DNA from: an uncultured Spirochaetota bacterium
GTDB taxonomy: Bacteria; Spirochaetota; Spirochaetia; SZUA-6; DRHE01
Assembly: GCA_963736785.1 (NCBI GenBank)
Contig: CAVTQG010000049.1
Location: 93,532 to 157,531 of the forward strand
Direction of reading: 5' to 3'
DNA: 64,000 nt
Under the pieces are notes generated by a model, which was not told the DNA's origin, did no database searches, and worked only from the letters and a program-made list of their open reading frames with translations. The position numbers and the translations under genes were made by a program. Numbering within the stretch: the stretch's first letter is position 1; the number at the start of each line of letters is the position of its first letter. Below, piece after piece: positions 28,866 through 64,000 of the stretch.

Positions 28866-28923
28866 GAGCTATAAAGTACTGACGCGCCGCCGCCGCGTCC
28901 AAGCCCCCTGCCGCTCGAACGCC

Positions 28924-47929: not shown

Positions 47930-47979
47930 GGGCGCATCATAGAGGAAAAACCCGCGCCGGGTCAAAGAGCGCCGGGTCC

Positions 47980-48009
47980 TTGCCCCGCGCGCAACCGGCG
48001 GTCTATACT
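47980..48009 (+). promoter_or_regulatory. Sigma70-like promoter carrying the 16-mer CGGCGGTCTATACTCC, which is repeated at 60464-60479
   Basis: TTGCCC (47980-47985), 18-nt spacer, TATACT (48004-48009). The identical 16-mer precedes the MttB-like gene at 60523. Confidence 0.45.
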
Positions 48010-48016
48010 CCACCCG

Positions 48017-48442
48017 ATGAACCGGCCCTTGAGCGAGCTGGTGGAGAGCGGCTACGGCGAGGAGCACGACCTGAACTGCGCCGAGACCATCCTGTGGGGA
48101 GCCAACGCGGTATACGATCTGGGGCTGGACCGCAACGCCCTGCGCCTGGCCGCCGGCTTCGGCGGGGGCATGGGGATAGAAGCCACCTGCGGAGCCCTGA
48201 CCGGCGCGATCCTGGTGATCGGGCGGATGTTCACCCGCGACCGCGGCCACGAGAGCCCGCGGGTCAAGGAGCTGTGCGTCCGGTTCCTGGAAGCCTACAA
48301 GGCCCGGATGGGAAGCATCGACTGCGCCCCCCTGAAGGCCCGGTACCGCAGCGAGGAGCTCAAGTGCCGGACGGTGGTGTTGCAGGCGGCCCGCATCCTG
48401 GAAGAGCTGATCGGCGAGCTGCAGGGTACAGTGGAGCGGTGA
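48017..48442 (+). CDS. C_GCAxxG_C_C-family putative redox-active protein
   Basis: 141 aa; …HDLNCAETILWGANAVYDL…GGMGIEATCGALTGAILVIG…SIDCAPLKARY…ELKCRTVV: four conserved Cys in the family arrangement. Confidence 0.6.
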   Translation: MNRPLSELVESGYGEEHDLNCAETILWGANAVYDLGLDRNALRLAAGFGGGMGIEATCGALTGAILVIGRMFTRDRGHESPRVKELCVRFLEAYKARMGSIDCAPLKARYRSEELKCRTVVLQAARILEELIGELQGTVER

Positions 48443-48502
48443 GCGCCGGCGCTCAAACCCCGTCCTTGACCGCCGCGCAGACAGGAAGTATCATCGGCAG
48501 CC

Positions 48503-49912
48503 ATGCGCATTTCGCCCCGCTCTTCTTTCCTGGAAAGCCCCCAGTGCGAACAGATCCACCAGGCGGCGCTGGAGATCCTTCGCCGCACCGGAGTGCGCGT
48601 CTTCCATGATGAAGCCCTGCGCCTGCTGGGCGAAGCCGGCTGCCTGATTCAAGAGGAAAACCTGGTGCGGATACCCGCCGCGCTGGTGGAGTGGGCCCTG
48701 CGGCAGCCCCCCTCCCGCATCGCCCTCTGCCGGCGCGGCGGCGGTGAAACGGCCGTGCCCCTGCACGAGCGCAACGTGAGCTTCGGCCCCGGATCGGATT
48801 GCCCGAACTACCTGGACCCGCTTTCAGGCCAGCGCCGCCCCTTCCGCCTTGCGGACCTGGAAGCCCTGCTGCGCCTGGTGGATGGCCTGCCCGAGCTGTC
48901 CTTTCTCATGTCCGCGGGAATTCCGTCGGATTTCCAGGGCAACGCCTATCGCAAGCAGTTCGCGCTGATGCTCCAAAGCAGCGTGAAGCCGATCGTCTTC
49001 GTCTGCAACGACGCAGAGGACTGCCGGCGGATCGTGGCCGCGGCCGCGGCCGTTGCCGGCGGCCCCGAAGCGCTGCGCCTGAATCCGACCCTGCTGTTGT
49101 ACTCCGAACCCACCACCCCGTTGCAGCACAGCCGGACGGCGCTGGAAAAGCTCCTGCTCATGGCCGAAGCCGGGCTGCCCGTGCTGCACTCCCCGGCGCC
49201 GATGATGGGCGGCACCGCCCCGGTGACGCTGGCCGGCGGCCTGGCCCTGGGCACGGCCGAGGCCTTGAGCGGCCTCCTCATCCAGCAGCTCAAGCGCCGG
49301 GGCGCCCCCTTCGTGTTCGGCAGCGGGCTGCACCACCTGGACATGAAGACCTCGATCAGCGTGTACGGGGCCCCGGAGTTCCAGCTGGCCCGGCTGGCGG
49401 TCGCCGATCTGGGCCGCTTCTACGGACTGCCGACCTGGGGATACGCGGGGCACTCGGACAGCTGCCTGTTCGACGAGCAGGCGGCGGCGGACGCCGTCTT
49501 TTCGACCCAGGTGGCCCTCCAGAGCGGCACGAACCTCATCCACGACGTGGGCTACGTGGAAGCAGGCCTTACCGATTCGCCGGAGATGATGGTTTTCACC
49601 TGCGAGATCATCCGCATGCTGCGGCGCTTCGAGCAGGGCATCCAGCTGGACGCCGCCTCCCTGGCCCTGGAGGTCATCCAGGCCGTCGGCCCGGGCGGCA
49701 ACTACCTGGCCGCGGACCACACCCTCGAGCACTTCCGGGAGTACTGGCAGCCCGAGCTGTTCAGCCGCCAGCGCCTGGCCGCCTGGCAGGAGGAGGGCGC
49801 CAAACCCTTGGGCCGGCGAGTGCGGGAGAAAACCATCGAGCTCATGCGGCAAGCCGAGGGCTCGCCGCTGCCGGACTCCCAGGCTAAGGAAGTGGAGTAT
49901 ATTCTGGCATGA
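48503..49912 (+). CDS. MttB-superfamily (trimethylamine methyltransferase-like, non-pyrrolysine) methyltransferase, paralog 1
   Basis: 469 aa, intact. N-terminus …QCEQIHQAALEILRRTGVRV…; …LHSPAPMMGGTAPVTLAGGLALGTAEALSGL…AVGPGGNYLAADHTLEHFRE. No in-frame TAG/Pyl codon. Confidence 0.75.
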   Translation: MRISPRSSFLESPQCEQIHQAALEILRRTGVRVFHDEALRLLGEAGCLIQEENLVRIPAALVEWALRQPPSRIALCRRGGGETAVPLHERNVSFGPGSDCPNYLDPLSGQRRPFRLADLEALLRLVDGLPELSFLMSAGIPSDFQGNAYRKQFALMLQSSVKPIVFVCNDAEDCRRIVAAAAAVAGGPEALRLNPTLLLYSEPTTPLQHSRTALEKLLLMAEAGLPVLHSPAPMMGGTAPVTLAGGLALGTAEALSGLLIQQLKRRGAPFVFGSGLHHLDMKTSISVYGAPEFQLARLAVADLGRFYGLPTWGYAGHSDSCLFDEQAAADAVFSTQVALQSGTNLIHDVGYVEAGLTDSPEMMVFTCEIIRMLRRFEQGIQLDAASLALEVIQAVGPGGNYLAADHTLEHFREYWQPELFSRQRLAAWQEEGAKPLGRRVREKTIELMRQAEGSPLPDSQAKEVEYILA

Positions 49913-51283
49913 GCTTCGACGGGCCCCTGGCCGCGGGGCGGGAAACGCAGCTCCCCCTGTCGGCGCAGGGGCTTTCCCGGATTCACCAGGCGAGCCTGGC
50001 CGTGCTGGAAGCTACGGGGGTCCGCTTCGCATCGGAACAGGCCCTGACCCTGTTCCGCAAGCGGGGTTTCCGGGTCGAGGGGCAGCGGGTCTTTTCCACC
50101 GAAAAGGACATTCTGCGCGCCCTGGAATCCGTGTCCGGCGAGTTTCACCATCCTGGCCCGCAATCCCAGGCACAACCTGCGCCTGGAACCCGGGGTGGCG
50201 AGCTTCGGCCTGGGCAGGGGGGCGCTGTTCTGGGTCGAACCGGACGGCTCGCATCGTCGGGGCAGGAAGGAGGACCTGCTCGCGGTCACCCGGCTCTGCC
50301 AGTGTCTGGACGTGCTCGAACACTGGGGACCCCTCATCCACCCGGGGGACCTCGATCCGCTGGAAGCGGGCGCCTGGTCCTGCCGGACCATGATCGAATA
50401 CACGGACAAGCCGTACTTGTACAACGGCCGCGAGGACATCGACCTGGTCGCCCTGTCCCTCGGCACCAGCCGGGAGCAGATGGCCGGACGTTCGGATTTC
50501 ACCCGCTCCTACGGGCAAGCCACCGGCATCGTCACCTCGCCCTTGAGCCTGGCCGCCGAGGATTGCGAGACCCTGATGGAGTACGCCCGCTGCGGAATCG
50601 CCTTCCACGTCGCCTCCATGCCTTTGGCTGGAACCAGCGGACCCTGCACCCTGGCCGGGCTGGTGATGCAGCAGAACTGCGAGAACCTGGCGGCGATCGT
50701 GCTTTCCCAGCTGGTGCGCCCGGGCTGCCCGGTGTTCTACGGGGCCATCGGGGGCTGCGCCGACATGCGCTCCCTGAGGCCCCTGTTCGGCACCCCGGAA
50801 GCCCGGCTGATCGAGCGCGCCGGCGCGCAGCTGGCCCGCTCCTACGGGCTGCTGTGCCGGGGCAACGCCGGCCTCACCGATGCGCCGGCCTGCGACTTCC
50901 AGGCCGGAGCCGAAGCCATGCTGCACACCCTGCAGGTCATCCGGGGCGGACCCGAGTTCCTGCCCGGCTGCGGCCTGCTGGGCAGCTACCTGGGGGCTTC
51001 CCTGGCCAAGATCGTGCTGGACGCGGAGCTGATCGCCGTGGCCCGGCGCCTGCTGGTCCCCATCCGCCTGGACGAGCAGTCCCTCGGCGTCGAAGCCCTC
51101 GCCGAGGTCGGGCCGGGCGGCTGCTTCCTCGACCACGCCCACACCTTGGAGCACTTCCGCCGCCGGCAGGCGCCCGACGGCGTGTTTCAGTCCACGGATT
51201 ATGACCGCTGGGCCGAACAGGGCAGGAAGGAAGCGGTCCACCTGGCCCAGGAAAAGGCGCTGCAGCTCATCGCCTGCCTATGA
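49909..51283 (+). CDS. MttB-superfamily methyltransferase, paralog 2 (frame shift near 50150)
   Basis: ATGA overlap with paralog 1. …LSRIHQASLAVLEATGVRF…, then ORF 50195..51283 …HVASMPLAGTSGPCTLAGLVMQQNCENLAAIVL…EVGPGGCFLDHAHTLEHFRR. Confidence 0.7.
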
Positions 51284-51346
51284 ACAGCCGCCGCTGGATG
51301 CAGGACTGAAGGCCGAGATCGACCGCTACGTGGAGACTCTCCGGCG

Positions 51347-53524
51347 ATGAACGAGGCCGACTCTCAGGTCGACGGCCATTGCGGCATCTGCGGCGCCGCC
51401 TGCGCCGTTCGCGTCCATCTGGAAGGCGGCCGTATCCGCCGCCTCAGCCCGCGGCCGGGTCACCCGCGCGGCATCACCTGCCGCCGCATCACGCGAGTCG
51501 AGGACATCGTCTATGCCCCCCAGAGGCTGCTGTATCCCCAGCGCGGCACGGGCCCGCGCGGCAGCAGGAGCCTCCAGCGCATCGGCTGGGAGGACGGCCC
51601 TGGACGAGGTCGCCGAGGCGCTGCGGCGGGTCGCCCGCCGCCACGGGCCGGAGGCGGTCTGCCTTTACACGGGCCGGGGCACCTTCGAGCAGTCGCTCTG
51701 GGAGATGCTCTCCCCCGCCGGGGTGCGGGAAACCTCGGCCTGGAGCCTTCTATTCCCCTTCGGCTCCCCGAATACCACCGGCGCCGGCGCCAACTGCTAC
51801 GCCGCCCAGGGGGTCATCGCCCCGGTCCTGACCAGCGGGGTGTGGAAGCTGGACACCCATGCCGACCTGGAGCGGGCTGAGCTGGTAGTGGTCTGGGGCA
51901 CCAACCCGGCCAACGCCTCCCCGCCGCTGGCCATGGCCGGCATCCGCCGGGCCCGGGCCCGGGGCGCCCGGGTGCTGGTGGTGGACCACCGCCGCACCGA
52001 AACCGTCAGGGCCGCCGACGCCCGCTGGCTGCCCATCCGGCCGGGCACCGACGGCGCCCTCGCGCTGGCCATGATCCACGTGCTCATCGAGGAGCAGCTG
52101 TACGACCGGCGGTTCGTGGAAGACTGGACCGTCGGCTTCGAGGAGCTGGCGGCCTACGTGCGGGACTTCAGCCCCGAACAGGCGGAAGCCCTCACCTGCG
52201 TGCCCGCGGCGGAAATCCGTGAGGCGGCCCGCCAGATCGGGCGCGCCCGGGGCGCCTGCCTGCTCCACGACACCGGGCTGGAGTACACCAACAGCGCCGT
52301 GCAGAACGTCCGGGCCGTGCTGATCCTGTTCGCCCTGGCCGGCCACTTCGACGTGCCCGGGGGCAACCTCATCACCATTGCCCCCTGGAGCTTCCAGGTC
52401 AACCGCAGCCGGCGGGTCTCGGCGCCGGCGGGCAGGCCACCGATCGGGGCCGAACGCTACCCGCTTTACACGAAGTTCCGCCACGAGGCCCAGGCCATGG
52501 AGCTTCCGCGGGCGATCCTGGAAGGGAAACCCTATCCGATCCGGGCCCTCCTGGTGTTCGGCGCCTCGATCCTTACCGCCTACCCGGACCCGGGGCTCTG
52601 GCGGCGCGCCTTCGCCGCCCTGGACTTCCTGCTGGTCGTGGACCGCCTGCCCACCGAAGAAACCCTGTTTGCCGACATCGTGCTGCCGGCCTCCACCGCC
52701 TTCGAGCACGGGGGCTACATCGTCCAGGGGCGGCGGGTGGCCGTGCGCCGGCCGATCATCGAGCCTTTAGGGGAGGCCCGCAGCGACTGGGACATCGCCA
52801 TCGCCCTGGCCCAGCGGCTGGGCTACGGCCAGCGCTACCCCCGCAGCATCGAGCAGATGCTGGAATGGGCCTTCGAGGGCACGGGCGTCGACCTGGAAGG
52901 CTGAAGCGTCATCCGGAGGGCATCCAGGTGCCGGCCCCGCCGATGCGCTACCGCAAGTGGGAGCTCGGCCTGCTGCGCCCGGACGGCCAGCCCGGCTTCG
53001 ACACCCCCAGCGGAAAGTTCGAGATCGCCTCCGGCATCCTGCAGGAGCACGGGTATGACCCGCTGCCCGTGTTCCAGCCGCCGGCAGAGGGTCCGCTATC
53101 CACCCCGGAGCTCGCCCGCGAGTACCCCCTGGTGTTCAACTCCGGCTCCCGCAACAAGGAGTTCTTCAATTCCCAGCACCACCACCTGGCCTCCCTGCTC
53201 GAGCGCTACCCGCGGCCCCTGGTCTGGATCCACCCCCAGGACGCGCAGCCGCGGGGCATCGCCGACGGGGACCGGGTGGCGGTCCGCACCCCCCGGGGCC
53301 GGGTGGCCTACACCGCCCGCGTGACCGAGGACATCCTGCCCGGCGTGGTGGAGGCGGACGCCCACGGCGGCGGGTTGACCGCCGCGCCGGCCTGGCGGGA
53401 GTGCAACGCCAACGAGCTCACCGACTTCGAAAACCGGGACCCCATCTCCGGGTTTCCCGTGTACAAAGCCCTGCTCTGTCAGGTCAGCAGGGAGGAGAGC
53501 TCAGCAAATCGATCAGCTGACTGA
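51347..53524 (+). CDS. Cytoplasmic molybdopterin (bis-MGD) oxidoreductase of the DMSO-reductase family with an N-terminal [4Fe-4S] motif; two frame shifts
   Basis: HCGICGAACAVRVHLEGGRIRRLSPRPGHPRGITCRR (CxxCxxC…C). Molybdopterin domain VVVWGTNPANASPPLAMAGIRRARARGARVLVVDHRRTE. C-terminal MGD-binding domain LVWIHPQDAQPRGIADGDRVAVRTPRGRVAYTARVTEDILPGVV. No twin-arginine signal. Confidence 0.7.
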
Positions 53525-54863
53525 CGCTGCTCAGGGTCTCGAACCCCCGGACCAGGTTCACCAGCCGGCCGGCGCGCTCGCGGCCCAGTACCGGGTCCAC
53601 CAGCCAGTGGAACTTTTCCTCCATGACCTTCTCGTCCCACCCGGGCTGCGGGAAACTCAAGGCCCCGTCGACTCTTCCGGAGCGCAAGGTCCCGCCGTCC
53701 TCCAGGTGGAGGGTCACCTCGCTGGCGAAGCGGCCGCGCGGGTCGCCCTGCTGGAACAACCGGCATAGCTCGTCCAGCTCCTCCGAGACCCGCACCTCGA
53801 TCTTCGCCGCCAGCTCCCGGATGCCCCGGTCGCCCAGGCGATGTTCGAGGGTCTGCTCCGGCCCGACCTCGCCGTCCGCCAACATGGCCGCCACCGGCCA
53901 GGCCAGATTGAACTGCGCCTCCTCGGTGGTTTCCGGCAAGCGGGTGCCCAGCGCCGCGGCCTCTCGGAAAGTCTCGATCTGGATCCTGCGGATCCGACGC
54001 GGGTCCAGGCGGTGCCCTTCCACGAGCTTCCGGGCTCCTTCCACGGCGGCGTGGGCCCAGCCGCAGCAGGCGTAGCCCTTGGCCTTCCAGGCCACGCCCT
54101 CCACCAGCAGGTAGTTGTCCCCGATATCGCCGACCCAGGGGGCGTATTTCTCGTGAGCGAGCAGACTCGGGATGCCTGTGAAGCCGCAGGAGGCCAGCTG
54201 CGCCGCGCAGATGCCCGTCAGGGCGCCCCAGCCGATGCCGTGCTTGACCATGGCCGGATGGGCCACGTCGCGCATCATGGGAAGATTGGGGGCGTGGTAG
54301 TCGGCGATTCCCAGCGCCTGGCAGGCCTGGTCGGCAGGCAGGTCCAGGAGATGGGCGGCGACCGCCGCGCAGGCCACCGCGCCCCAGGAGCCGCAGGCCT
54401 GATACACGGCGTGGTCGTCGTGCCAGCAGCGCCCGATGCGGTGGGCCACTTCGTAGCCCACCACCATTCCCGTCAGGAGGCGCGCTCCGCTCAGGCCCCG
54501 CGCTTCGGCCAGGGCCAGCGCCGTGGGAAAAAGCTGCGCCCCCGCGTGCCCGTAGGCGTACCGGGCGCTGTCGTCGGAGTCCAGGCCATTGGCCGCGCAC
54601 CCATTGGCGAAGGCCGCTCCCGCGGCGTTGGCCCTCTTTCCCTGCAGCAGGATGGAGGCCTCGCCCCCCGGCAGGAACCTGGCGGCGAACTCCGCCGCGA
54701 TCCGGCTCACCCGGGCGCGGCTGCCGCTGATCGCGGCCGACAGGTTGTCCAGCAGGCACAGGCGGGCCTTGCGCTGCACCGCGGCGGGCAGCTCCCGCCA
54801 GTGGATGCCGGACACGAAGCGGCCCACCCGCCGCTCCGCGTCCATGCCTCCCGCCTCAGCCAT
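53484..54863 (-). CDS. MmgE/PrpD-family protein (2-methylcitrate dehydratase-like)
   Basis: 459 aa; FVSGIHWRELPAAVQRKARLCLLDNL… and the family-length two-domain layout. Confidence 0.65.
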   Translation of the reverse strand: MAEAGGMDAERRVGRFVSGIHWRELPAAVQRKARLCLLDNLSAAISGSRARVSRIAAEFAARFLPGGEASILLQGKRANAAGAAFANGCAANGLDSDDSARYAYGHAGAQLFPTALALAEARGLSGARLLTGMVVGYEVAHRIGRCWHDDHAVYQACGSWGAVACAAVAAHLLDLPADQACQALGIADYHAPNLPMMRDVAHPAMVKHGIGWGALTGICAAQLASCGFTGIPSLLAHEKYAPWVGDIGDNYLLVEGVAWKAKGYACCGWAHAAVEGARKLVEGHRLDPRRIRRIQIETFREAAALGTRLPETTEEAQFNLAWPVAAMLADGEVGPEQTLEHRLGDRGIRELAAKIEVRVSEELDELCRLFQQGDPRGRFASEVTLHLEDGGTLRSGRVDGALSFPQPGWDEKVMEEKFHWLVDPVLGRERAGRLVNLVRGFETLSSVSQLIDLLSSPPC

Positions 54864-55800: not shown

Positions 55801-55803
55801 AGC

Positions 55804-57874
55804 TCAGGACCCTTCCTTCTTCTGGATCCGCAACAGCTCTTCGGCCGGAATGTGGCACTGGATCCGGTGCCAGCGGCCGTGCTCCTGCCAGGGCGGCTCC
55901 TGGGTCTCGCAGATCCTCCCGATCTTGCGGGGGCAGCGCGTGTGGAAACGGCAGCCGGAGGGGACGTTGACGGCGCTAGGCACGCCGCCGCGCAGGCGGA
56001 TGCCCTGCTGTGCGGCGTCGGGGTCGGGCACGGGCAATGCCGACAGCAGCGCCTCGGTGTAGGGATGGTGCGGGGGGGAGAACACGTCCGCCGCCGAGCC
56101 GATCTCCCAGAGGCGCCCCAGGTAGATCACGGCGATCCAGTCCGACAGGTGGCGCACGGCGGCCAGGTCGTGCGAGATGAACAGGTAGGAGGTGCCCTGG
56201 GTCTCCTGGAGGTCGGCCAGCAGGTTCATCAGCGACGCCTGCACCGACACATCCAGGGAGGAAATGGGCTCGTCGCAGATCATCAGGGCCGGATCGGTGG
56301 CGAAGGCCCGGGCAATGGCCACCCGCTGTTTCTCCCCGCCGCTCAGCTCGTGGGGCAGGCGGGGGATGTATTCCAGCGGAAGATTGACCGCCTGGAACAG
56401 CTCCCGCACCCGCTGCCTGAGCCGAGCCCGGGGCAGGCCCCCCAGCAGCGCGAGGGGGCGCTCCACGCTCGCCCCCACGGAAAACTGGGGGTTGAGGGAG
56501 GCGTCGGGATTCTGAAAAACCATCTGGATCTTCTTCAGCTGCGCGGTCGAGCGCCGGGCGAGGGTCCGGGGCAGCTTCTCGCCTTCCAGCGCGAGGTCCC
56601 CCGCGGTGGCCTCCTCCAGCCCGGCGATGCAGCGGGCCAGGGTGGTCTTGCCGCAGCCGCTCTCCCCGACGATCCCCATGGTGAAGCGCCGGCGGACCCG
56701 CACCGAGATGTCGTCCACGGCGCGCACCATCGGCCGGCCGTGCCGCAGCAGCTCCAGCAGTCCCACCCGCCCGGCGGGGAAGTACTTGCGGATATGGGAG
56801 GCCTCCAGCACGACAGGGGTCTGGACCCCGGCAGCCTCCTGGTCGTAGGCGCGTTTCTTCTGCGGCGCGGTGAAGGATTGCGGGGACCGGCGCAGCTCCT
56901 GCCAGCGCCGGCAGGCGGTGGCATGCCCCGGCTCGGCGCTCTGGAGCGGCGGCCGCGCGGCCCGGCAGGCCTCCTCGGCTCCGGGGCAGCGCGGGGCGAA
57001 GATGCACCCCGGCGGAAGCCTGTTGGAGCGGGGGATAAGCCCCGGAATCGTGTTGAGCACGATGTCGCGTTTGTCCAGATCGATGCGCGGCACGCGAGCC
57101 CAACAATCCCAGGGTGTAGGGGTGCAGCGTCCGCTTGAACACGTCGCGCACCGCACCCTCTTCCAGCAGCTCCCCCGCGTACATCACGCCCACGCGGTGG
57201 CCCAGGCGGGCCACCACCCCGAGATTGTGCGTGATGTAGAGGACCGCGGTCCGGTATTCCGCGAGCAGGTCCCGGACCAGGTCCAAAATCACCGCCTCGG
57301 TGGTCACGTCCAGCGCGGTGGTCGGCTCGTCCAGGATGAGCAGGCGCGGGCTGGTGGACAGGGCGATGGCGATCAGCACCCGCTGCAGCTGGCCGCCGCT
57401 CAACTGATGGGCGTAGCGCCGGGCAACAACCGCGGGATCAGACATGCGCACCTTGGCCAGCATCTCCAACGCCAGGGCGGCGGCCCGCCCGCGGGACAGA
57501 CCCAGATGCACGCGGGCCATTTCGGCGATCTGCTCGCCGATCATGATCGAGGGGTTGAGCGCGGTGTTGGGATCCTGGTGCACCATGGTGATCCGGGCGC
57601 CCCAGGTGCGCCGCATCCGGGCGCTGGACAGCTCCAGCAGGTTGGTCCCGTCCAAGTGAACGCTGCCCGCGATGATGCGCCCGTTGGCGGGGAGGTAGCG
57701 CACGATGGCCCGGGCCAGGGTCGTCTTTCCCGAACCGGATTCGCCCACCAGGCCGAAGATCTCCCCCGGGGCAATGGCCAGGGACACGCCGCGGACCGTC
57801 TCCAGCGGGCCCTCATCAGTATCGTAGGCGACGGAGAGGTTGCGCACCTCCAGCGCCGCGGCGGCAGTGTTCAC
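55804..57874 (-). CDS. ABC transporter ATP-binding protein with two fused nucleotide-binding domains (GsiA/DppDF-like); frame shift near 57110
   Basis: NBD1: GLVGESGSGKTT…LSGGQLQRVLIAIAL…LILDEPTTALD; peptide-ABC C-terminal motif HPYT…GC.F..RCP. It continues without a stop into NBD2: GIVGESGCGKTT…LSGGEKQRVAIARAF…MICDEPISSLD…HPYTEALL. Confidence 0.65.
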
Positions 57875-58728
57875 TCGCCCGCCCCGCCCGGCAGGAGCAG
57901 GCGCCGCAGGCCGTCGCTCAGGAAGCCGACCCCCACGACCAGCAAGGCGATGGCGCCGGCGGGGGCCAGCAATGGCCACTGGGCCTGGGTGAAGTAGTTG
58001 CGGGCCTCCCCCACCATCAGTCCCCAGTCCGGCGAGGGCGGCTGCACGCCCAGGCCCAGAAATCCCAGCGAAGCCACCAGGAAGATGGCGTAGGAGAAAC
58101 GCATGGAGGCTTCGACGGCCAGCGGCGGCAGCACGTTGGGGAGGATCTCGCGGAACATGATGTAGAGGCTGCTTTCCCCCCGCAGCCTGGCGGCCTCGAC
58201 GAACTGCCGGGTTTTCAGGTCCAGCACCACGCTGCGGACCACCCGCGATACCATGGGAACGTACAGGAAACCGACGATCAGGACCACGTTCAGCCGGGAG
58301 GGCCCCAGGGAAAAAAGGATGAGCATGGCCAACAGCAGCGGCGGCATGGCCAGCAGGACATCCACCAGGCGCATGAGGATCTCGTCCACCACCCGCCCGA
58401 AATAGCCGGAGACCAGTCCCAGGGTCGAGCCGATGAGGATCGCCAACAGCGCGCCGGACCCGGCCACGAGGTACACGTCCCGGCTGCCGACGATGACCCG
58501 GCTGAAGACGTCGCGCCCGAACTGGTCGGTGCCCAGCAGATGCCGTGGCGAAGGGGGGAGCAGGCGCTCCGCGAGGGACTGATCGGAGTACTTGTAGGGA
58601 GCCACCAGGGGGCCGATCAGCGCCAGCAGCAGAAAAAAACCCACGATCGCCAGGCCGGCCAGCGTCGTCGGGTACCGACGCAGGCGCCGCCAGCCGATCG
58701 CGACCCTGCCCCTCTGTTTTTTATCCAT
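57871..58728 (-). CDS. ABC transporter permease (DppC/OppC-like)
   Basis: Internal start MDKKQRGRVAIGWRRL at 58728; …YFGRVVDEILMRLVDVLLAMPPLLLAMLI… (DppC-type). The upstream part of ORF 57871..60087 is the antisense/alternate frame of the SBP gene. Confidence 0.7.
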   Translation of the reverse strand: MDKKQRGRVAIGWRRLRRYPTTLAGLAIVGFFLLLALIGPLVAPYKYSDQSLAERLLPPSPRHLLGTDQFGRDVFSRVIVGSRDVYLVAGSGALLAILIGSTLGLVSGYFGRVVDEILMRLVDVLLAMPPLLLAMLILFSLGPSRLNVVLIVGFLYVPMVSRVVRSVVLDLKTRQFVEAARLRGESSLYIMFREILPNVLPPLAVEASMRFSYAIFLVASLGFLGLGVQPPSPDWGLMVGEARNYFTQAQWPLLAPAGAIALLVVGVGFLSDGLRRLLLPGGAGE

Positions 58729-58796
58729 GACGTCGAAAACACCCTCCCCCCGCGAACCCGGGGGGAGGACACGCAGCACGCCCGGAACCCGCCGCG

Positions 58797-60365
58797 TTAT
58801 TTCTCGAAATACACCTGCGCCAGATCCACCGCCGTTCCCAGGTAGCCGGTCGGCACGATGCCCTTGAGTTTCTTGCTGGCGCCCCACAGGCTGTTGCTGA
58901 AGAACGGCACGAGGATCGGGCCGCGCTCGATGAAGATCCTCTGGATCTGCTTGTAAATCCCGGCCCGCTTGGCCCGGTCCGACTCGCCGGCGGCCTTCTT
59001 GGCCAGGGCGTCGACCTCCGGGTCCGCCCAGTGGCTCTCGTTCCACTGGGCCCCGCTGGTATACGCCAGGTTCAGGTAGGGCTGCGGGGTGGCCCGCGCG
59101 CCCCAGTCGGTGATGGCGAAGTCGGCCTCCAGCCACAGGTTGTCGGCCCCGTAGTAGACGTCGGGAGGCACGAGCTGGATTTCCACGTCCACCCCTGCGT
59201 CGGCCAGCTGCTCCTTCAGGATCGTGGCCATGGCGGGCACGGGAGAGGCCTGCTGGGCGGTCAGGGTGACTTTCAGCCCGGAACCGTAGCCCGCTTCGGC
59301 CAGCAGCTTTTTCGCCTTGGCCAGGTCCCGCGGCAGCTCCGGCACGTCCAGATAATAGTCGGCGTACGCCGGCCCGAACGGGGTGTCGCGGCCGGTCACC
59401 CCCAGGCCCTGGAAGGCACCGTCCAGGATCGCCTGGCGGTCGATCGCCGCCCGGAAGGCCTGGCGCACCCGCGCGTCGCCGAACGGCTTGCGGTCGCTGC
59501 GCATATGGACCACGTAGTGGGTGTTGGACGGCTTCTGGTAGACCACCAGATTCGGGTCCGCCGCGACGGTCTTCACGTACTCCGAGGGCAGGTACAGCAG
59601 GTAGTCCACCTGCCCGCCCCGCAGCGCTTCGACCTGGGCCGAGGCCTCCGCCAGGAAGATGTACTGGATCCCGTCCAGGTACGGCAGTTGATTGCCCTTG
59701 GCGTCCTTGCGCCAGTAGCTCGGGTTGCGTTTCAGGGTCATGCGATCCTCGGGCAGGTAGCTGTCGATGATGAAGGCTCCCGAGCCGATGTGCTGGGTGG
59801 CGAAGTCCGTGGTGCCGCTCCAGACGATGATCGTGTGGTAGTCGCCCAGGTTGGTGACCAGGTCGGGGTCGGGTTGCTTCAGCTTGAAGACCACCGTGTA
59901 GGCATCCGGGGTGGAAATATCCACGACGCCGGCGTACATGGCCACGGTGGCCGCCCCCACCTTGGGGTCGCGCAGCCGGTCGAAGGTGAACTTCACGTCC
60001 TTGGAGGTAAGCTCCTGGCCGTTGTGGAACTTCACGCCTTTCCGCAAGGTGAAGGTCCAGGTCAGGCCGTCGGCGCTGACCGACCACTTCTCCGCCAGGC
60101 TGCGACCTGGATCCGGCCGCAGGTTTTCGTCGACATACACCAGAAAGTCGCCCCAGAACCGCCCGATCTCGTCATCGGTAATAGAGCTCAGGAAGGCCGG
60201 GTCCAGGTTGGTCGGCGCGAAGAAAGCCTTCTTGAGAACTCCTCCGTACATCCCCCCGCCTGCGGCACCGGCCGCCGGCTTGGCCTCCTGACCGCCGCCG
60301 GCCCACAGCAGGCCAACGGACAACAGCAAAGCAGCGGATAAGACGGCCGCGAAAGATTTTTTCAT
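58797..60365 (-). CDS. ABC transporter periplasmic substrate-binding protein, family 5 (peptide/opine/nickel type)
   Basis: Signal peptide MKKSFAAVLSAALLLSVGLLWAGG; ~500 aa mature SBP5-like. Strong RBS GAAGGAGGA before the ATG at 60365. Confidence 0.75.
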   Translation of the reverse strand: MKKSFAAVLSAALLLSVGLLWAGGGQEAKPAAGAAGGGMYGGVLKKAFFAPTNLDPAFLSSITDDEIGRFWGDFLVYVDENLRPDPGRSLAEKWSVSADGLTWTFTLRKGVKFHNGQELTSKDVKFTFDRLRDPKVGAATVAMYAGVVDISTPDAYTVVFKLKQPDPDLVTNLGDYHTIIVWSGTTDFATQHIGSGAFIIDSYLPEDRMTLKRNPSYWRKDAKGNQLPYLDGIQYIFLAEASAQVEALRGGQVDYLLYLPSEYVKTVAADPNLVVYQKPSNTHYVVHMRSDRKPFGDARVRQAFRAAIDRQAILDGAFQGLGVTGRDTPFGPAYADYYLDVPELPRDLAKAKKLLAEAGYGSGLKVTLTAQQASPVPAMATILKEQLADAGVDVEIQLVPPDVYYGADNLWLEADFAITDWGARATPQPYLNLAYTSGAQWNESHWADPEVDALAKKAAGESDRAKRAGIYKQIQRIFIERGPILVPFFSNSLWGASKKLKGIVPTGYLGTAVDLAQVYFEK

Positions 60366-60448
60366 CGGAAATCCTCCTTCTGTATAAACAATATAGGGTC
60401 CGGGTGCCGCACCTGTCAAAGGAAACACCGCAGGTTAGGAGCCCTTAC

Positions 60449-60477
60449 TTGCCACCGGTTCCGCGGCGGTCTATACT
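60449..60477 (+). promoter_or_regulatory. Sigma70-like promoter carrying the shared CGGCGGTCTATACTCC motif, upstream of MttB paralog 3
   Basis: TTGCCA (60449-60454), 17-nt spacer, TATACT (60472-60477). GGAGG RBS 7 nt before the GTG at 60523. Confidence 0.5.
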
Positions 60478-60522
60478 CCGGCCGCGGACGCTCACAATGG
60501 ATACCCACGTCAGGAGGCGAAG

Positions 60523-61968
60523 GTGCAAGCGAACTGTGTGTATCAGCAGACAGCCAGCCTGCAGTTCTTGAGCCCGGACCAGTGCGAGGAGATCTTCCTC
60601 GCCGCCCTGGACATCCTGGATCGGATCGGGGTGCGGGTGCACGAGCCGCGGGGGCTGGACTTGCTGCGAAAGGCCGGAGCCCGGCTGGAGGCGGACCGCG
60701 CCTTCCTTCCCGCCTGGCTGGTGCGCCAGGCCCTGGCCACGGCGCCCTGCCGGGTCCCGGTCGCCCGCCGCGATGGCCGCCCGGCCCTGCGGTTGGAGAA
60801 GGGCCGCTCCTACTTCGGCACCGGCTCCGACACCCAGTTCACCTATGACTTAGCGGACGGAAAGCGGCGCCTCTCCACCAAGCAGGACGTGGCCAACGCG
60901 GCGCGCATCGCCGACGGCCTGCCCCACATCGACTTCGTGATGTCCCTGGGCCTGGCCTCCGACGTGCCCACCTCCTCCTGCTACGTGCACCAGTTCGAGG
61001 CCATGGCGCTGAACACGGTCAAGCCGATCCTGTACACCGCAGCGGACCGGCGGGACGCGGAGGACATCCTGTCGATCGCCGAGGCCATCGCTGGGGGGCG
61101 CGAAGCCCTGGCCGCCCGCCCCTTCCTGGTCCTTTACGCCGAGCCCACCTCGCCGCTGCAGCACAGCCGGGAGGCGGTGGACAAGCTCCTACTGTGCGCC
61201 GAGCGGCGCCTACCGGTCATGTACATCCCCGCGGTGATGCTGGGGGCCACCGCGCCCGTGACGATCGCCGGCGCCCTGGCCCAGATCAACGCGGAGTGCC
61301 TGTCCGGCCTGGTCATGCACCAGCTGGCCGGTCCCGGCTCTCCATTCATCTACGGCGGGGCCGCACCGGTCATGGACATGCGCACCTCCCTGTGCTCCTA
61401 CGGCTCGCCGGAGCTGGCCCTGTCCTGCGCCGGCATGATCAGCATGGCCCGCTGGCTGAACCTGCCCGTGTTCTGCACGGCGGGCTGTTCCGACGCCCAC
61501 ACCTTCGACCCGCAGGCAGGCCTCGAGGCCGGCTACAGCGTCCTGACCATGGCCCTGGCCGGCGGCAACCTGATCCACGACCTGGGCTATTTGAGCGCGG
61601 GCATGAGCTCCTCGATGGAGATGCTGGCCTTGTGCGACGAGGCGGCGGGCCTCGCCCGCTACCTGCTGGCCGGCATCGAGGTTTCCCCCCGCACCCTGGC
61701 CCTGCAGACCATCGAGCAGGTGGGCCCGGGCGGCAACTACATGGCCGAGAGCCACACCGTGGAGAACTTCAAGAGCTCCCTGCACTTCACCTCGATCATG
61801 AACCGGCTGGAGTACACCCGCTGGCAGGAAGCTGGCTGCACGACCCTTCAGGAGCGGGCCAACCGCCGGGTCCGCGCCATCCTGGCCTCGCACAAACCGC
61901 CGGAGCTGCCGGCCGAAGTCGTGAGGACCGTCCGGGCCGTCGCCTCCGGACGGGACCGCGGCGGATGA
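60523..61968 (+). CDS. MttB-superfamily methyltransferase, paralog 3
   Basis: 481 aa, intact; …DQCEEIFLAALDILDRIGVRV…MYIPAVMLGATAPVTIAGALAQ…QVGPGGNYMAESHTVENFKS. Confidence 0.75.
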   Translation: MQANCVYQQTASLQFLSPDQCEEIFLAALDILDRIGVRVHEPRGLDLLRKAGARLEADRAFLPAWLVRQALATAPCRVPVARRDGRPALRLEKGRSYFGTGSDTQFTYDLADGKRRLSTKQDVANAARIADGLPHIDFVMSLGLASDVPTSSCYVHQFEAMALNTVKPILYTAADRRDAEDILSIAEAIAGGREALAARPFLVLYAEPTSPLQHSREAVDKLLLCAERRLPVMYIPAVMLGATAPVTIAGALAQINAECLSGLVMHQLAGPGSPFIYGGAAPVMDMRTSLCSYGSPELALSCAGMISMARWLNLPVFCTAGCSDAHTFDPQAGLEAGYSVLTMALAGGNLIHDLGYLSAGMSSSMEMLALCDEAAGLARYLLAGIEVSPRTLALQTIEQVGPGGNYMAESHTVENFKSSLHFTSIMNRLEYTRWQEAGCTTLQERANRRVRAILASHKPPELPAEVVRTVRAVASGRDRGG

Positions 61969-63330
61969 CCGGCGGCTCGCGCTCCGCGGCCCGCTTGCGC
62001 CTGCTCACCGGCGAGGACTGCGCCCGGGTCCGCGCAGCCGCCTTCCGCCTCCTGGCCGAAGTCGGAGTTCAGGTGGATGACGCGCAGGCTTCGGCGACGT
62101 CTGGTGCGGGCCGGTGCCCGCCAGGATGAGACCGGGAGGCTGCGCCTGGCCGAGGAGGTGGTGCTCCGGGCCCTGGAAAGAGTGCCTCGCCGCCTGGTTC
62201 TCTTCGATCAGGCCGGCCGGCCGGCCGTGGACACGGCGGACCCGATCCCCCGCTTCGGCCTGGGCATCAACTGCCTGCGCACGCTGGACTGGCGCACCGG
62301 CCAGCTGCGCTCCTGCAGTCTGGCGGACATCCGCGAGACCGCGCGACTGTGCGAGCAGCTGCCCAACGTGGACCTGGCCGCCAGTCTGGGCAACCCCAAT
62401 GAGCTGCCCGCCACCGAGCAGGCGCTGGCCGCGGTGCGGGCCCTGGCCGAAGGCACGCGCAAACCCCTGGCCTACGCCGCCCACGACGAAGTGGAGGATC
62501 GGGTGATCTGGGGCTGGCTGGCCGAGCGGGCCGGAGGCTGGCAGGCGCTGTCCGACCGTCCCTTCGCCCTGGACCTGACCGGCCCGCGCTCCCCCCTGGT
62601 GCTGGGGTCGGAAGCCTGCCGGCGCCTGGCCTTCGCCGCCCGCCGGCGGCTGCCCGTGGTGTGCTACCCGGCGCTGCTGCCCGGCAGCAACGGACCGGTG
62701 ACCCTGGAGGGGGCCCTGGCCCAGTCCACCGCGGAAATCCTGGCCGGTCTGGCGGTGCATCAGCTCGCGGGTCCGGGCTCTCCCGTGGTGACCGGCTCCG
62801 CCATCCTGCCCATGGACCTGCGTTCGGGAGCCATCGCCTACGGCTCCCCGGATTACGTGCTGGCCGGTCTGGCCGCCGTGGACCTTTTCGGCGAGCTGGG
62901 CATTCCCACCTGGATCGGGGCAGGCTGCTCGGACGCCCACACGGTGGACGCCCAGGCCGCCGCGGAGGCGGGCATGAACCTGCACCTGGCCGCCCTGTCC
63001 GGCACCTCCTTCATCCACAACCTGGGGTACCTGTCCGGCGGCAAGACCGGCTCCCTGGAAATGCTGGTGTTGTGCGACGAGCTGGCCGGCTCGGCGCGCC
63101 GCCTGGCCGCCGGGCTGACCGTGAGCGACGGAGCGCCTGGCCGTGCAGGTGAGCGCGCGCGCGGCGCGGGAGAACGCCTTCCTGACCGACGAGCACACCC
63201 TCGCCCACATGCGTTCCGCCCTTTGGGTCTCCGGGCCTCCTGCAGCGCGCCGGCCTTGAGGACTGGCAGGCCCGGGGCTCGCCGAGCCTGCAGCGCCGCC
63301 TGCGCGAGCGCGTGGGCGAGCTGCTGGGCT
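61965..63330 (+). CDS. MttB-superfamily methyltransferase, paralog 4 (several frame shifts)
   Basis: ATGA overlap with paralog 3. …CARVRAAAFRLLAEVGVQV…, then ORF 62077..63675 …CYPALLPGSNGPVTLEGALAQSTAEILAGL…; C-terminus …FLTDEHTLAHMRSALW…RLRERVGELLG*. Confidence 0.6.
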
Positions 63331-63340
63331 GAGAGGCGCT

Positions 63341-64000
63341 ATGGCCCCGCCGTCCGGCCCCGAACTGCTGGCCGAAGCCCAAAGGCTTCTTCCCGCGCTG
63401 TCGGCCCTGCGCCGCGACCTGCACCGCCACCCGGAACTCGGGGGACAGGAACGGCGTACCGCCGCGCGCATCGCCGCGGCGCTGCAGCGCCTCGGGCTGG
63501 AGGTGCGCACGGGCGTGGCCGGCAACGGGGTGGTGGGCCTGCTGCGCGCCCGTGCGGGCGCCGTATCCCCGGCGGTCGCCCTGCGGGCCGACATCGACGC
63601 CCTGCCGGTGCAGGAGGACAGCGACCTCCCCTACCGCTCCCTCGTGCCCGGGGTGTCCCACGCCTGCGGGCATGACGGGCACACGGCGATCCTGCTGGGC
63701 GCCGCGGAGCTGCTCCGCCGCCATGCGGCGGACTTGCCCGGCGACGTGTTGTTTGTTTTCCAGCCCAGCGAGGACACCCTGCCCGGGCGGGGCCCGGGCC
63801 ATGGTCCGCGAAGGCGCCCTGGGTCGCGCACGCGGGGTGCTCTCCCTGCACCTGAACCCGCTTTTTTCTGCGGGGACCGTGGCTTTAAGGGAGGGTTGGG
63901 CGACCTGCTCCTCGGTCAGCTTCCGCCTGCGCCTCCAGGGGCGGGGCGGGCATGTGGCCGATCCCGGGCACGCGCTCAACCCGCTGCTCCCCGCCGCGGC
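63341..64000 (+). CDS. M20-family amidohydrolase (aminoacylase/hippurate hydrolase-like), partial; frame shift near 63800
   Basis: …LHRHPELGGQERRTAARIAAAL…RADIDALPVQEDSDLPYRS…HACGHDGH (M20D metal-binding block). Continues beyond the window. Confidence 0.6.
   Translation, partial: MAPPSGPELLAEAQRLLPALSALRRDLHRHPELGGQERRTAARIAAALQRLGLEVRTGVAGNGVVGLLRARAGAVSPAVALRADIDALPVQEDSDLPYRSLVPGVSHACGHDGHTAILLGAAELLRRHAADLPGDVLFVFQPSEDTLPGRGPGHGPRRRPGSRTRGALPAPEPAFFCGDRGFKGGLGDLLLGQLPPAPPGAGRACGRSRARAQPAAPRRG

What the first reader, a model, noticed from the sequence alone, without database searches (positions are those of the whole stretch)
48017..64000. Non-pyrrolysine MttB-superfamily island: four paralogs in two coupled pairs, a cytoplasmic Mo-oxidoreductase, a Dpp-like importer, PrpD and M20 hydrolase, with no corrinoid protein
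MttB-family methyltransferases are known from anaerobic methylotrophy. There they pass methyl groups from TMA, glycine betaine, proline betaine, carnitine or gamma-butyrobetaine to a cognate corrinoid protein, and a corrinoid:THF or CoM methyltransferase is encoded nearby. This window holds four divergent paralogs (ATGA-coupled pairs 48503/49909 and 60523/61965) with no TAG codon. It has no cobalamin-binding protein gene and no MtgA/MtbA-like gene. A C_GCAxxG_C_C redox protein heads the first pair. A [4Fe-4S] bis-MGD oxidoreductase without a Tat signal follows. An SBP5-type ABC importer, a PrpD/MmgE protein and an M20 amidohydrolase lie between the pairs. One reading is a quaternary-amine or N-methylated compound uptake and demethylation pathway. 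Either it uses a corrinoid partner encoded elsewhere, or it has an alternative methyl acceptor. The Mo-enzyme could reduce an N-oxide precursor, or oxidise a product.
Basis: partly seen in the sequence, partly recalled or inferred. Interest (0 to 1): 0.65.

Follow-up and report, generated by a model that had tools for sequence, protein, structure and literature searches.

The report
MttB methyltransferase island with molybdoenzyme
This is a conserved gene island of a Spirochaetota-like bacterium that most likely imports an unidentified betaine-like methylated compound and removes its methyl groups with four MttB-family enzymes. These enzymes are consistently linked to a cytoplasmic molybdenum enzyme, the missing vitamin-B12 carrier protein is probably encoded elsewhere (a known arrangement), and the apparent gene breaks are assembly errors.

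Summary
There are four non-pyrrolysine MttB paralogs in two ATGA-coupled pairs, plus a C_GCAxxG_C_C protein, a Tat-less [4Fe-4S] bis-MGD enzyme, a PrpD-family protein, an SBP5 ABC importer and an M20 amidohydrolase. No corrinoid, pterin-binding, URO-D or RamA gene occurs anywhere in the 64 kb.

Two corrections apply. M20 follows the second pair rather than lying between the pairs. At least nine single-base frameshifts break paralogs 2 and 4, the Mo enzyme, the ATPase and M20. A 99%-identical independent contig lacks exactly the three extra bases it covers, and housekeeping genes elsewhere are also broken, so these are assembly errors, not decay.

Lack of an adjacent corrinoid gene is a documented arrangement (E. 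limosum MtqC; R. pomeroyi MtgC). One orthologous pair (77%/65% identity) sits directly beside a corrinoid protein and an MtmB-family gene.

The new point is that the paralog-1 orthologue lies within 10 kb of this Mo enzyme in 16 of 19 informative loci from several phyla, usually with the SBP5 importer. The substrate is unknown. None of the paralogs resembles MtgB or MttB closely (26-31% identity). I judge it a new variant of a known kind, of moderate interest.

The parts
46805..47929 (-). HisC-type class I/II aminotransferase, divergent from the first MttB operon
   Evidence: PF00155 at 5.6e-57. TIGR01141 hisC scores 301.9 bits against a cut-off of 276.55. It occupies the same position in L005, L006, L007 and L023.
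47975..48011 (+). Sigma70-like promoter (TTGCCC-N18-TATACT) containing the 15-mer GGCGGTCTATACTCC. The ATG at 48017 follows 8 nt after the -10 element.
   Evidence: An exact second copy of the 15-mer heads the other MttB operon. The element is conserved in L005 and L006.
48017..48442 (+). C_GCAxxG_C_C putative redox protein (141 aa)
   Evidence: PF09719 at 84.9 bits and TIGR01909 at 85.5 bits. Present in L005, L006 and L023; replaced by EamA in L007.
48503..49912 (+). MttB paralog 1 (469 aa, intact): the core, most conserved member
   Evidence: PF06253 at 293.7 bits. It has 2,973 relatives, many at 65-99% identity. It is 99.3% nt identical to L005 with no gaps.
49909..51350 (+). MttB paralog 2 (479 aa after removing single extra bases at 50139 and 51275). 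ATGA-coupled to paralog 1 and to the Mo gene.
   Evidence: An intact 99%-identical protein, P0121, exists on L035.
51347..53524 (+). Cytoplasmic [4Fe-4S] bis-MGD (DMSO-reductase superfamily) enzyme, about 725 aa after correction (extra base at 51594, missing base at 52900). PsrA/acetylene-hydratase-like, with a probable Cys ligand.
   Evidence: Pfam. Frame mapping against the intact 718-aa L007 protein. PDB matches: 2vpw at 9e-77 and 2e7z at 4e-73. All NCBIfam equivalogs score below their cut-offs.
53484..54863 (-). MmgE/PrpD-family protein (459 aa)
   Evidence: PF03972 and PF19305. It scores only 36 bits against the 950-bit cut-off of the PrpD equivalog. Orthologues occur in L014, L028 and L031; AcnX or Amidohydro_2 sit in its place in L007/L029 and L033.
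54856..55800 (-). DppB-like ABC permease
   Evidence: PF00528 and PF19300. It is 90% identical to the L007 permease.
55804..57930 (-). Fused double ABC ATPase (2x ABC_tran + oligo_HPY), split in the window by a frameshift near 57094. The start coordinate is approximate.
   Evidence: Pfam. The single 706-aa L031 protein maps to frames -1 and -2.
57871..58746 (-). OppC-like ABC permease (start approximate)
   Evidence: PF12911 and PF00528. It is 82% identical to L031 OppC.
58797..60365 (-). SBP_bac_5 (Dpp/Opp/Nik-type) substrate-binding protein with an N-terminal signal-like segment
   Evidence: PF00496 at 311 bits. It falls below every NCBIfam equivalog cut-off. The N-terminus reads MKKSFAAVLSAALLLSVGLLWAGGG.
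60443..60479 (+). Second sigma70-like promoter (TTGCCA-N17-TATACT) with the same 15-mer
60523..61968 (+). MttB paralog 3 (481 aa, intact)
   Evidence: PF06253 at 318.2 bits. Its best PDB match is MtgB 2qne at 2.7e-65, at only 30% identity. No orthologue at 55% identity or more occurs in any fetched locus.
61965..63332 (+). MttB paralog 4 (454 aa after removing extra bases near 62083, 63129 and 63227). ATGA-coupled to paralog 3.
   Evidence: It is 63-66% identical to the intact 447-aa orthologue that precedes M20 in L030 and L031.
63341..64000 (+). M20D amidohydrolase, N-terminal about 220 aa. It has a frameshift near 63788 and runs off the window.
   Evidence: The L030 orthologue scores 312.7 bits on TIGR01891 against a cut-off of 153.75.

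Best explanation
This is a catabolic island for one or a few related onium (quaternary-ammonium, betaine-like) compounds, in a Spirochaetota-like anaerobe or facultative bacterium.

Shown:
- Two promoter-headed operons, plus a divergent importer operon, encode an SBP5/Opp-like ABC importer and four deeply divergent non-Pyl MttB-family TIM-barrel methyltransferases.
- They also encode a cytoplasmic Cys-type [4Fe-4S] bis-MGD enzyme that is translationally coupled to the first MttB pair, and four accessory enzymes (C_GCAxxG_C_C, PrpD-family, M20D amidohydrolase, HisC-type aminotransferase).
- The genes are intact in the natural population. The breaks in the window are assembly indels.

Inferred:
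- The importer brings in the compound or compounds.
- Each MttB paralog transfers an N-methyl group to the Co(I) form of a shared corrinoid protein encoded elsewhere in the genome.
- An MtgA/MtqA-type enzyme then passes the methyl group to tetrahydrofolate.
- The demethylated skeletons are processed by the PrpD-family (de)hydratase/isomerase, the amidohydrolase and the aminotransferase.
- The Mo enzyme works in the same pathway on the MttB1 substrate or product. The most plausible role is as a reductase that turns an N-/S-oxide or hydroxylated precursor into the MttB substrate, possibly drawing electrons from the C_GCAxxG_C_C thiol protein. Its reaction is not identified.
For: - Domain content.
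- Operon structure and shared promoter.
- Intactness: the 99.0%-identical L035 differs from window 49528-52148 by indels only at 50139, 51275 and 51594, the frameshift sites. An intact P0121 exists. dN/dS of the corrected genes is 0.30-0.34. malQ, rlmL, sigma70 and a PAS/HD gene are broken too. 8 of the 9 mapped indels are +1 insertions.
- Corrinoid dependence: the orthologous pair in L004 is followed by a B12-binding_2/B12-binding protein with the DxHxxG motif and an MtmB-family gene. In L025 a corrinoid protein sits next to a 43% relative of paralog 3.
- Precedent for a shared, distantly encoded corrinoid subunit: PMC12155760 and PMC12478193.
- Opp-like betaine importer precedent.
- Mo linkage: the Mo enzyme is within 10 kb of the MttB1 orthologue in 16 of 19 informative non-redundant loci. 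These come from Spirochaetota, Anaerolineae/Chloroflexi and Solibacteraceae MAGs and from unnamed metagenome contigs, and the linkage holds down to about 58-62% Mo identity. It is often ATGA-coupled.
- Nine contig lengths are shared between the top-120 hit lists of MttB1 and the Mo enzyme.
Against: - No corrinoid, pterin-binding, URO-D or RamA gene occurs in the 64-kb window or within 10 kb in L030-L034 and L037. Only 1 of 19 MttB1 loci has a corrinoid gene nearby.
- No complete genome could be scanned, so 'partner elsewhere' is untested for this lineage.
- The MtgB glycine-betaine-binding residues are not conserved, and no substrate can be named.
- No characterised MttB system includes a Mo enzyme. 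Literature searches for the combination found nothing relevant.
Confidence: 0.6

Rival explanations
1. The system is corrinoid-independent. The MttB1 (with or without MttB2) protein and the Mo enzyme form a functional unit in which the Mo enzyme, rather than a corrinoid protein, receives or oxidises the methyl group, or otherwise converts the bound onium compound.
For: Mo and MttB1 are adjacent in 16 of 19 loci, against 1 of 19 for a corrinoid gene. The genes are ATGA-coupled. No B12-related gene or riboswitch occurs in any island. Paralog 1 has His at the pyrrolysine column and lacks the MtgB substrate-binding residues.
Against: Every characterised MttB-family enzyme methylates a corrinoid (PMC12155760 and PMC13080624). 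Orthologues of the pair sit next to a corrinoid protein in L004, which shows no Mo gene on the 2.7 kb of contig that remains downstream. No chemistry is known by which a PsrA/acetylene-hydratase-type enzyme accepts a methyl group. No gene fusions were seen.
Confidence: 0.08
2. The island is decaying. The frameshifts are real, and paralogs 2 and 4, the Mo enzyme, the ATPase and M20 are pseudogenes in this strain.
For: At least nine frame breaks occur in 16 kb. The indels are not in long homopolymers. One lineage (L029, L010, L011) carries internally deleted copies of MttB1, MttB2 and the Mo gene.
Against: A 99%-identical independent contig has intact genes and differs by indels only at the break sites. 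Unrelated housekeeping genes across the window are also broken. 8 of 9 indels are +1 insertions, with no nonsense codons or deletions. dN/dS is about 0.3. Sibling long-read ('MFD') MAG loci show the same kind of breaks.
Confidence: 0.07
3. The neighbours are unrelated in function. The SBP5 importer, M20, PrpD and aminotransferase form a peptide, opine or amino-acid-derivative catabolic unit. The MttB genes and the Mo enzyme serve other, separate functions and are merely co-located.
For: SBP5, M20 and aminotransferases are typical of peptide or amino-acid use. The accessory genes vary between lineages: PrpD, AcnX or Amidohydro_2, and C_GCAxxG or EamA.
Against: The trio of MttB1, Mo enzyme and SBP5 ABC importer with a fused ATPase recurs across phyla in different gene orders and orientations. 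MttB4 followed by M20 recurs in L030 and L031. The two operons share a promoter element.
Confidence: 0.12

Closest known systems
MtgB/MtgC/MtgA glycine betaine:THF methyltransferase system of Desulfitobacterium hafniense
   Same: It uses a non-Pyl PF06253 TIM-barrel methyltransferase. All four paralogs align end to end with MtgB (2qne/9yce) at E 1e-50 to 1e-65.
   Different: Identity is only 26-31%. The glycine-betaine-binding residues Y97, R312, H348 and F356 are not jointly conserved in any paralog. No mtgC or mtgA lies next to the genes. A Mo enzyme is present.
Eubacterium limosum MtpB/MtcB/MtyB with shared MtqC/MtqA, and Ruegeria pomeroyi dispersed MtgB/C/D/E
   Same: Several MttB paralogs in one genome work through a single corrinoid subunit (PMC12155760). 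In R. pomeroyi that subunit is encoded at another locus (PMC12478193). This is the arrangement proposed here.
   Different: The partner genes were not seen for this lineage. Sequence relatedness to MtpB, MtcB, MtyB and MthB was not tested. Those systems have no associated bis-MGD enzyme or SBP5 importer.
Polysulfide/thiosulfate reductase PsrA (2vpw) and acetylene hydratase (2e7z), DMSO-reductase superfamily
   Same: It has the same three-domain architecture with an N-terminal CX2CX3C...C cluster and a probable Cys metal ligand. These are the best PDB matches (9e-77 and 4e-73). Like acetylene hydratase, it is cytoplasmic and stands alone.
   Different: It has no Tat signal and no PsrB/PsrC partners. 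It scores far below every NCBIfam equivalog cut-off. It has Gly where acetylene hydratase has the catalytic Asp after the second Cys (sequence; the position of the acetylene hydratase residue is from my own knowledge).
Prb, the Opp-like proline betaine ABC importer of Sinorhizobium meliloti
   Same: It is an SBP5/Opp-family importer that carries a quaternary amine (reference confirmed).
   Different: No sequence comparison was made. Here the two ATPases are fused into one protein of about 706 aa.

Membership tests
MttB superfamily (PF06253) | A full-length match to the MTTB profile above the gathering score | tested here: met
   Paralogs 1 and 3 score 293.7 and 318.2 bits. Paralogs 2 and 4 score 232.6 and 162.7 bits on their largest frame pieces (cut-off 25). 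The corrected sequences align over profile positions 2-466 of TIGR02369.
Pyrrolysine-type trimethylamine methyltransferase MttB (TIGR02369 equivalog) | An in-frame TAG (pyrrolysine) at the active-site position, and a score above the equivalog cut-off | tested here: not met
   No internal stop codon occurs in any paralog. The Pyl column holds H, L, C and C in paralogs 1-4. Scores of 257-391 bits fall below the 525-bit cut-off.
Glycine betaine methyltransferase MtgB | The glycine-betaine-binding residues Y97, R312, H348 and F356 (PMC13080624) | tested here: not met
   Paralog 1 has S/W/H/G, paralog 2 has R/R/P/Y, paralog 3 has S/F/H/G and paralog 4 has I/W/H/G. Identity to MtgB is 26-31%.
MtpB / MtcB / MtyB / MthB (E. 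limosum enzymes of known substrate) | Close sequence relatedness to the characterised enzyme | not tested
   Their sequences were not obtainable with the tools. NCBIfam gave no specific family hit for any paralog.
Three-component corrinoid-dependent methyltransferase system (MT1 + corrinoid protein + MT2, with RamA) | A cognate B12-binding corrinoid protein gene | tested here: not met
   None occurs in the window or within 10 kb in L030-L034 and L037. One is present next to the orthologous pair in L004. The rest of the genome cannot be tested.
Three-component corrinoid-dependent methyltransferase system | A methylcorrinoid:THF (pterin-binding) or :CoM (URO-D) methyltransferase, and a RamA-type activase | tested here: not met
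   No PF00809, PF01208 or RACo hit occurs in the window at E<=1e-4.
Three-component corrinoid-dependent methyltransferase system | Methylation of Co(I)-corrinoid by the MttB-family protein | not testable with these tools
   This needs a biochemical assay.
DMSO-reductase (bis-MGD) superfamily | Molybdop_Fe4S4 + Molybdopterin + Molydop_binding domains | tested here: met
   PF04879, PF00384 and PF01568 are found on the three frame pieces. The intact 718-723-aa orthologues carry all three.
Named bis-MGD enzymes (FdhA, PhsA, DmsA/YnfE, BisC, TorA, NasC, ArrA ...) | A score above the NCBIfam equivalog or subfamily cut-off | tested here: not met
   The best is Fdh-alpha at 273 bits against a cut-off of 666, then PhsA at 228 against 694. 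All others are lower. The residue after the candidate Cys is Tyr, not the His that I recall formate dehydrogenases having at this position (sequence; the formate dehydrogenase motif is from my own knowledge).
Tat-exported periplasmic molybdoenzymes | An N-terminal twin-arginine signal peptide | tested here: not met
   The N-terminus reads MNEADSQVDGHCGICG. The cluster motif starts at residue 12, and the relatives are the same.
Dpp/Opp-type ABC importer | SBP_bac_5, two BPD_transp_1 permeases (OppC_N and BPD_transp_1_N), and ABC ATPases with oligo_HPY | tested here: met
   The ATPases are fused in relatives.
2-methylcitrate dehydratase PrpD | The NCBIfam equivalog score | tested here: not met
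   The two MmgE_PrpD Pfam domains are present, but the score is 36 bits against a cut-off of 950. It is a family member of unknown reaction.

The most novel reading that the evidence does not exclude
MttB1 and the PsrA/acetylene-hydratase-like Mo enzyme constitute a previously undescribed two-enzyme system that handles an onium compound without any corrinoid protein. The Mo enzyme would act as the direct acceptor, oxidant or converter of the group that MttB binds. That would be the first corrinoid-independent function in the MttB superfamily.
Probability: 0.07. Interest if true: 0.85.

Novelty: new variant of a known kind. Interest (0 to 1): 0.42.

Why it matters
Most of the very large non-pyrrolysine MttB superfamily has no known substrate; six members are assigned (PMC12155760). 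This island defines four uncharacterised subfamilies. One of them (paralog 1) is inherited together with a dedicated cytoplasmic molybdoenzyme and an Opp-like importer in Spirochaetota, Chloroflexi/Anaerolineae and Acidobacteriota from soils and sediments.

That linkage is a concrete, testable lead to a new methylated substrate class, and to a pathway step (Mo-dependent reduction or conversion) not seen in any described quaternary-amine demethylation system. It also serves as a caution: 'no corrinoid gene nearby' is normal for this family, and frame breaks in long-read MAGs should not be read as biology.

Tried and rejected
- The metagenome scan with corrected paralog 2 returned only relatives at 64-66% identity, so it did not help with the frameshift question. 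The answer came from the protein search plus contig look-up.
- The genome-contig scan did not recover the window's own genome; the best hit was 88% identical. The rest of the genome therefore could not be searched for a corrinoid protein.
- Rfam gathering search of the window and four related loci found no riboswitch, only a group II intron fragment in L031.
- Literature searches for MttB combined with molybdopterin, molybdopterin oxidoreductase or corrinoid-independent found nothing relevant. The C_GCAxxG_C_C literature gave no function. The mercury-methylation paper was not relevant.
- NCBIfam gave no specific name for PrpD, SBP5 or M20 beyond the family level.
- Formate dehydrogenase was considered and set aside: the score is far below the cut-off and there is no Cys/Sec-His motif.
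- Specific substrates were considered and left open for lack of discriminating evidence. These were hercynine or ergothioneine, hydroxyproline betaine (suggested by AcnX in L007), trigonelline or other N-heterocycle betaines (suggested by XDH genes in L004 and Amidohydro_2 in L033), DMSP/DMSOP, and TMAO.
- The shared 15-mer was first considered a possible operator. Alignment shows it is the -10 region of a standard promoter, so co-regulation is only suggested.

Full report
**Gene map**

The window is about 70% G+C, so long spurious ORFs are common. I therefore used third-position GC together with Pfam to fix the real frames. The region holds the following genes.

| Coordinates | Strand | Gene |
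|---|---|---|
| 46805-47929 | - | HisC-type aminotransferase |
| 48017-48442 | + | C_GCAxxG_C_C protein |
| 48503-49912 | + | MttB paralog 1 |
| 49909-51350 | + | MttB paralog 2 |
| 51347-53524 | + | [4Fe-4S] bis-MGD enzyme |
| 53484-54863 | - | PrpD-family protein |
| 54856-55800 | - | DppB-like permease |
| 55804-~57930 | - | Double ABC ATPase with oligo_HPY domains |
| 57871-~58746 | - | OppC-like permease |
| 58797-60365 | - | SBP_bac_5 binding protein |
| 60523-61968 | + | MttB paralog 3 |
| 61965-63332 | + | MttB paralog 4 |
| 63341 onward | + | M20 amidohydrolase (runs off the window) |

- The ATGA overlaps claimed at 49909 and 61965 are present. A third couples paralog 2 to the Mo gene at 51347.
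- None of the MttB genes has an internal stop or TAG codon.
- The Mo enzyme has no room for a Tat signal.
It follows paralog 4.

**Frameshifts**

| Gene | Break position(s) |
|---|---|
| Paralog 2 | 50139, 51275 (three frames) |
| Mo enzyme | 51594 (extra base), 52900 (missing base) |
| Fused ATPase (706 aa in relatives) | about 57094 |
| Paralog 4 | about 62083, 63129, about 63227 |
| M20 | about 63788 |

Removing or adding these single bases restores proteins of 479, 725, 454 and at least 220 aa. They align end to end with intact relatives.

Four lines of evidence indicate that these are assembly errors and not decay.

1. L035 is an independent JGI contig, 99.0% identical over 2,618 nt. It differs from the window by indels only at 50139, 51275 and 51594, and it encodes the intact 479-aa P0121.
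2. Unrelated genes across the window are broken in the same way: malQ, rlmL, a PAS/HD-GYP gene and the sigma-70 gene.
3. Eight of the nine indels are +1 insertions, with no nonsense codons or larger deletions.
4. dN/dS of the corrected genes against relatives is 0.30-0.34, against 0.19-0.22 for the intact paralog 1. This indicates purifying selection.

Sibling long-read ('MFD') MAG loci show the same artefact.

**No corrinoid gene in the window**

I Pfam-scanned every GC3-supported ORF piece of 1-47000. The genes found include:
- an RHS-repeat protein and a Borrelia_P83/100 homologue;
- MMPL/LolA-like, TetR, a P-type ATPase, MgsA and BacA;
- malQ, NifU, HtrA, XdhC, RlmL and NudC;
- carbamate kinase, a type II pantothenate kinase (Pfam Fumble) homologue and an adenylate cyclase;
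- a thioredoxin-domain protein.

There was no B12-binding, pterin-binding, URO-D or RamA-type domain. A tblastn and a small HMM built from two corrinoid proteins also found nothing in the window. There is no cobalamin riboswitch.

**The island is conserved**

Paralog 1 has thousands of relatives, many at 65-99% identity. Contexts from metagenomes and species-representative genomes show the same set of genes.

- L007: sigma70, aminotransferase, EamA, MttB1, MttB2, Mo enzyme (718 aa; the last three ATGA-coupled), AcnX, permease.
- L006: aminotransferase, C_GCAxxG, MttB1, MttB2, Mo enzyme.
- L030 (the complete Spirochaetaceae chromosome CP070696.1) and L031: MTTB, EamA, an SBP3-type ABC system, M20, the MttB4 orthologue and an aminotransferase. 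On the other strand lie MttB1, MttB2 (in L030 only), the Mo enzyme, PrpD and the Dpp-like ABC system with SBP5.
- L033 and L037 carry the same trio in other orders and orientations.

Of 19 informative non-redundant loci with an MttB1 orthologue at 60% identity or more, 16 have the Mo-enzyme orthologue within 10 kb, and 1 has a corrinoid protein. Nine contig lengths are shared between the two top-120 hit lists. The nearest named relatives are Spirochaetota MAGs. Others are Anaerolineae/Chloroflexi and Solibacteraceae.

**How the paralogs compare with characterised enzymes**

The four paralogs form four separate orthologous groups. They are 27-40% identical to one another and 26-31% identical to D. 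hafniense MtgB and M. barkeri MttB. All fall below the TIGR02369 cut-off.

The table compares the MtgB glycine-betaine-binding residues defined in PMC13080624 with each paralog.

| MtgB position | Paralog 1 | Paralog 2 | Paralog 3 | Paralog 4 |
|---|---|---|---|---|
| Y97 | S | R | S | I |
| R312 | W | R | F | W |
| H348 | H | P | H | H |
| F356 | G | Y | G | G |
| Pyl column of MttB | H | L | C | C |

None is therefore an MtgB or a TMA-type MttB. Relatedness to MtpB, MtcB, MtyB and MthB could not be tested.

**The Mo enzyme**

- Its best solved relatives are polysulfide/thiosulfate reductase PsrA (2vpw, 9e-77) and acetylene hydratase (2e7z, 4e-73).
- It has a Cys one position from the PsrA Mo ligand Cys173.
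- It is far below every NCBIfam cut-off, including formate dehydrogenase.
- It is cytoplasmic and has no PsrB/PsrC-type partner genes.
- Its family is large, with at least 120 clusters at 58% identity or more.

**Interpretation**

All characterised MttB-family enzymes methylate a corrinoid protein (PMC12155760). A missing adjacent corrinoid gene is a documented arrangement.
- In E. limosum, MtpB, MtcB and MtyB all use MtqC and MtqA.
- In R. pomeroyi, mtgB, mtgC, mtgD and mtgE are dispersed, and up to seven PF06253 genes appear to work through one MtgC (PMC12478193).

The orthologues of paralogs 1 and 2 in L004 (77% and 65% identity) are followed directly by a B12-binding_2/B12-binding protein with the DxHxxG motif and by an MtmB-family gene. 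An Opp-like importer for proline betaine is known.

The most likely mechanism is import of a betaine-like onium compound, corrinoid-dependent demethylation with a partner encoded elsewhere, and further conversion by PrpD, M20 and the aminotransferase (confidence about 0.6). The Mo enzyme almost certainly belongs to the same pathway, given its conserved adjacency and translational coupling. Its reaction is unknown. Reduction of an N-/S-oxide or hydroxylated precursor, perhaps with the C_GCAxxG_C_C protein as electron donor, is inference only.

Both + strand operons start with the same promoter element, GGCGGTCTATACTCC within TTGCC-N17/18-TATACT. This is compatible with co-expression.

**Rivals**

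| Reading | Confidence |
|---|---|
| Corrinoid-independent MttB-Mo system | about 0.08 |
| Real pseudogenisation | about 0.07 |
| Functionally unrelated neighbours | about 0.12 |

**Verdict**

The 'missing corrinoid' is ordinary. The conserved MttB-molybdoenzyme-Opp-like importer module is, as far as the searched literature shows, undescribed. It is a worthwhile lead to a new substrate class. I rate it a new variant of a known kind, with interest 0.42.

Noticed in passing
window 8555-10430, 25809-27437, 29631-30981, 45344-46709: Genes outside the island are split across reading frames: a PAS/HD-GYP gene, malQ (GH77, three frames), rlmL, and the sigma70/DUF6596 gene (at least four pieces). This points to an assembly-wide indel error rate of roughly one per 2-4 kb.
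   Followed up: partly
window 47997-48011 and 60465-60479: An identical 15-mer, GGCGGTCTATACTCC, lies inside TTGCC-N17/18-TATACT promoters heading the two MttB operons. The C_GCAxxG_C_C start codon is 8 nt after the -10 element, so its mRNA may be leaderless.
   Followed up: partly
L004 1-14135 (Spirochaetaceae MAG CAYMGP010000058.1): Orthologues of paralogs 1 and 2 sit in a classical methylotrophy context, followed by a corrinoid protein and a non-Pyl MtmB-family gene. Two xanthine-dehydrogenase-type Mo-hydroxylase gene sets lie upstream.
   Followed up: partly
L029 10001-13079; L010; L011: The three loci share the same internally deleted MttB1, MttB2 and Mo-enzyme genes. This is possibly a genuinely degraded copy of the island in one lineage. 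The assemblies may not be independent.
   Followed up: no
L016, L020, L027 (MFD long-read MAGs): In these MAGs the Mo-enzyme orthologue (and MttB1 in L020) is also broken into several frames. This is consistent with long-read indel artefacts of the same kind as in the window.
   Followed up: no
window 2-4483 (-) and ~5687-6958 (-): A very large RHS/YD-repeat protein (15 RHS repeats) runs off the window start. A Borrelia_P83/100-family protein (302 bits) lies nearby, which supports a spirochaete origin.
   Followed up: no
L031 5657-5792 (-): A group II intron D1-D4 RNA match (RF02003, 78 bits) lies between the SBP3-type ABC permease and the M20 gene of the related island.
   Followed up: no
window 60523-61968: Paralog 3 has no orthologue at 55% identity or more in any of the 37 fetched loci. 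Its nearest relative (43%) lies next to a corrinoid protein in the Anaerolineae locus L025.
   Followed up: partly
window 22942-24966 (+): One open frame carries a nitroreductase-like N-terminal part and AlaX-like tRNA_SAD / tRNA-synt_2c parts. This may be two genes joined by another frame error.
   Followed up: no
window 28855-29739 (+): An XdhC/CoxI-family gene lies about 19 kb upstream of the island. From my own knowledge, this family is an accessory or maturation factor for xanthine-dehydrogenase-type molybdoenzymes. No link to the bis-MGD enzyme was tested.
   Followed up: no
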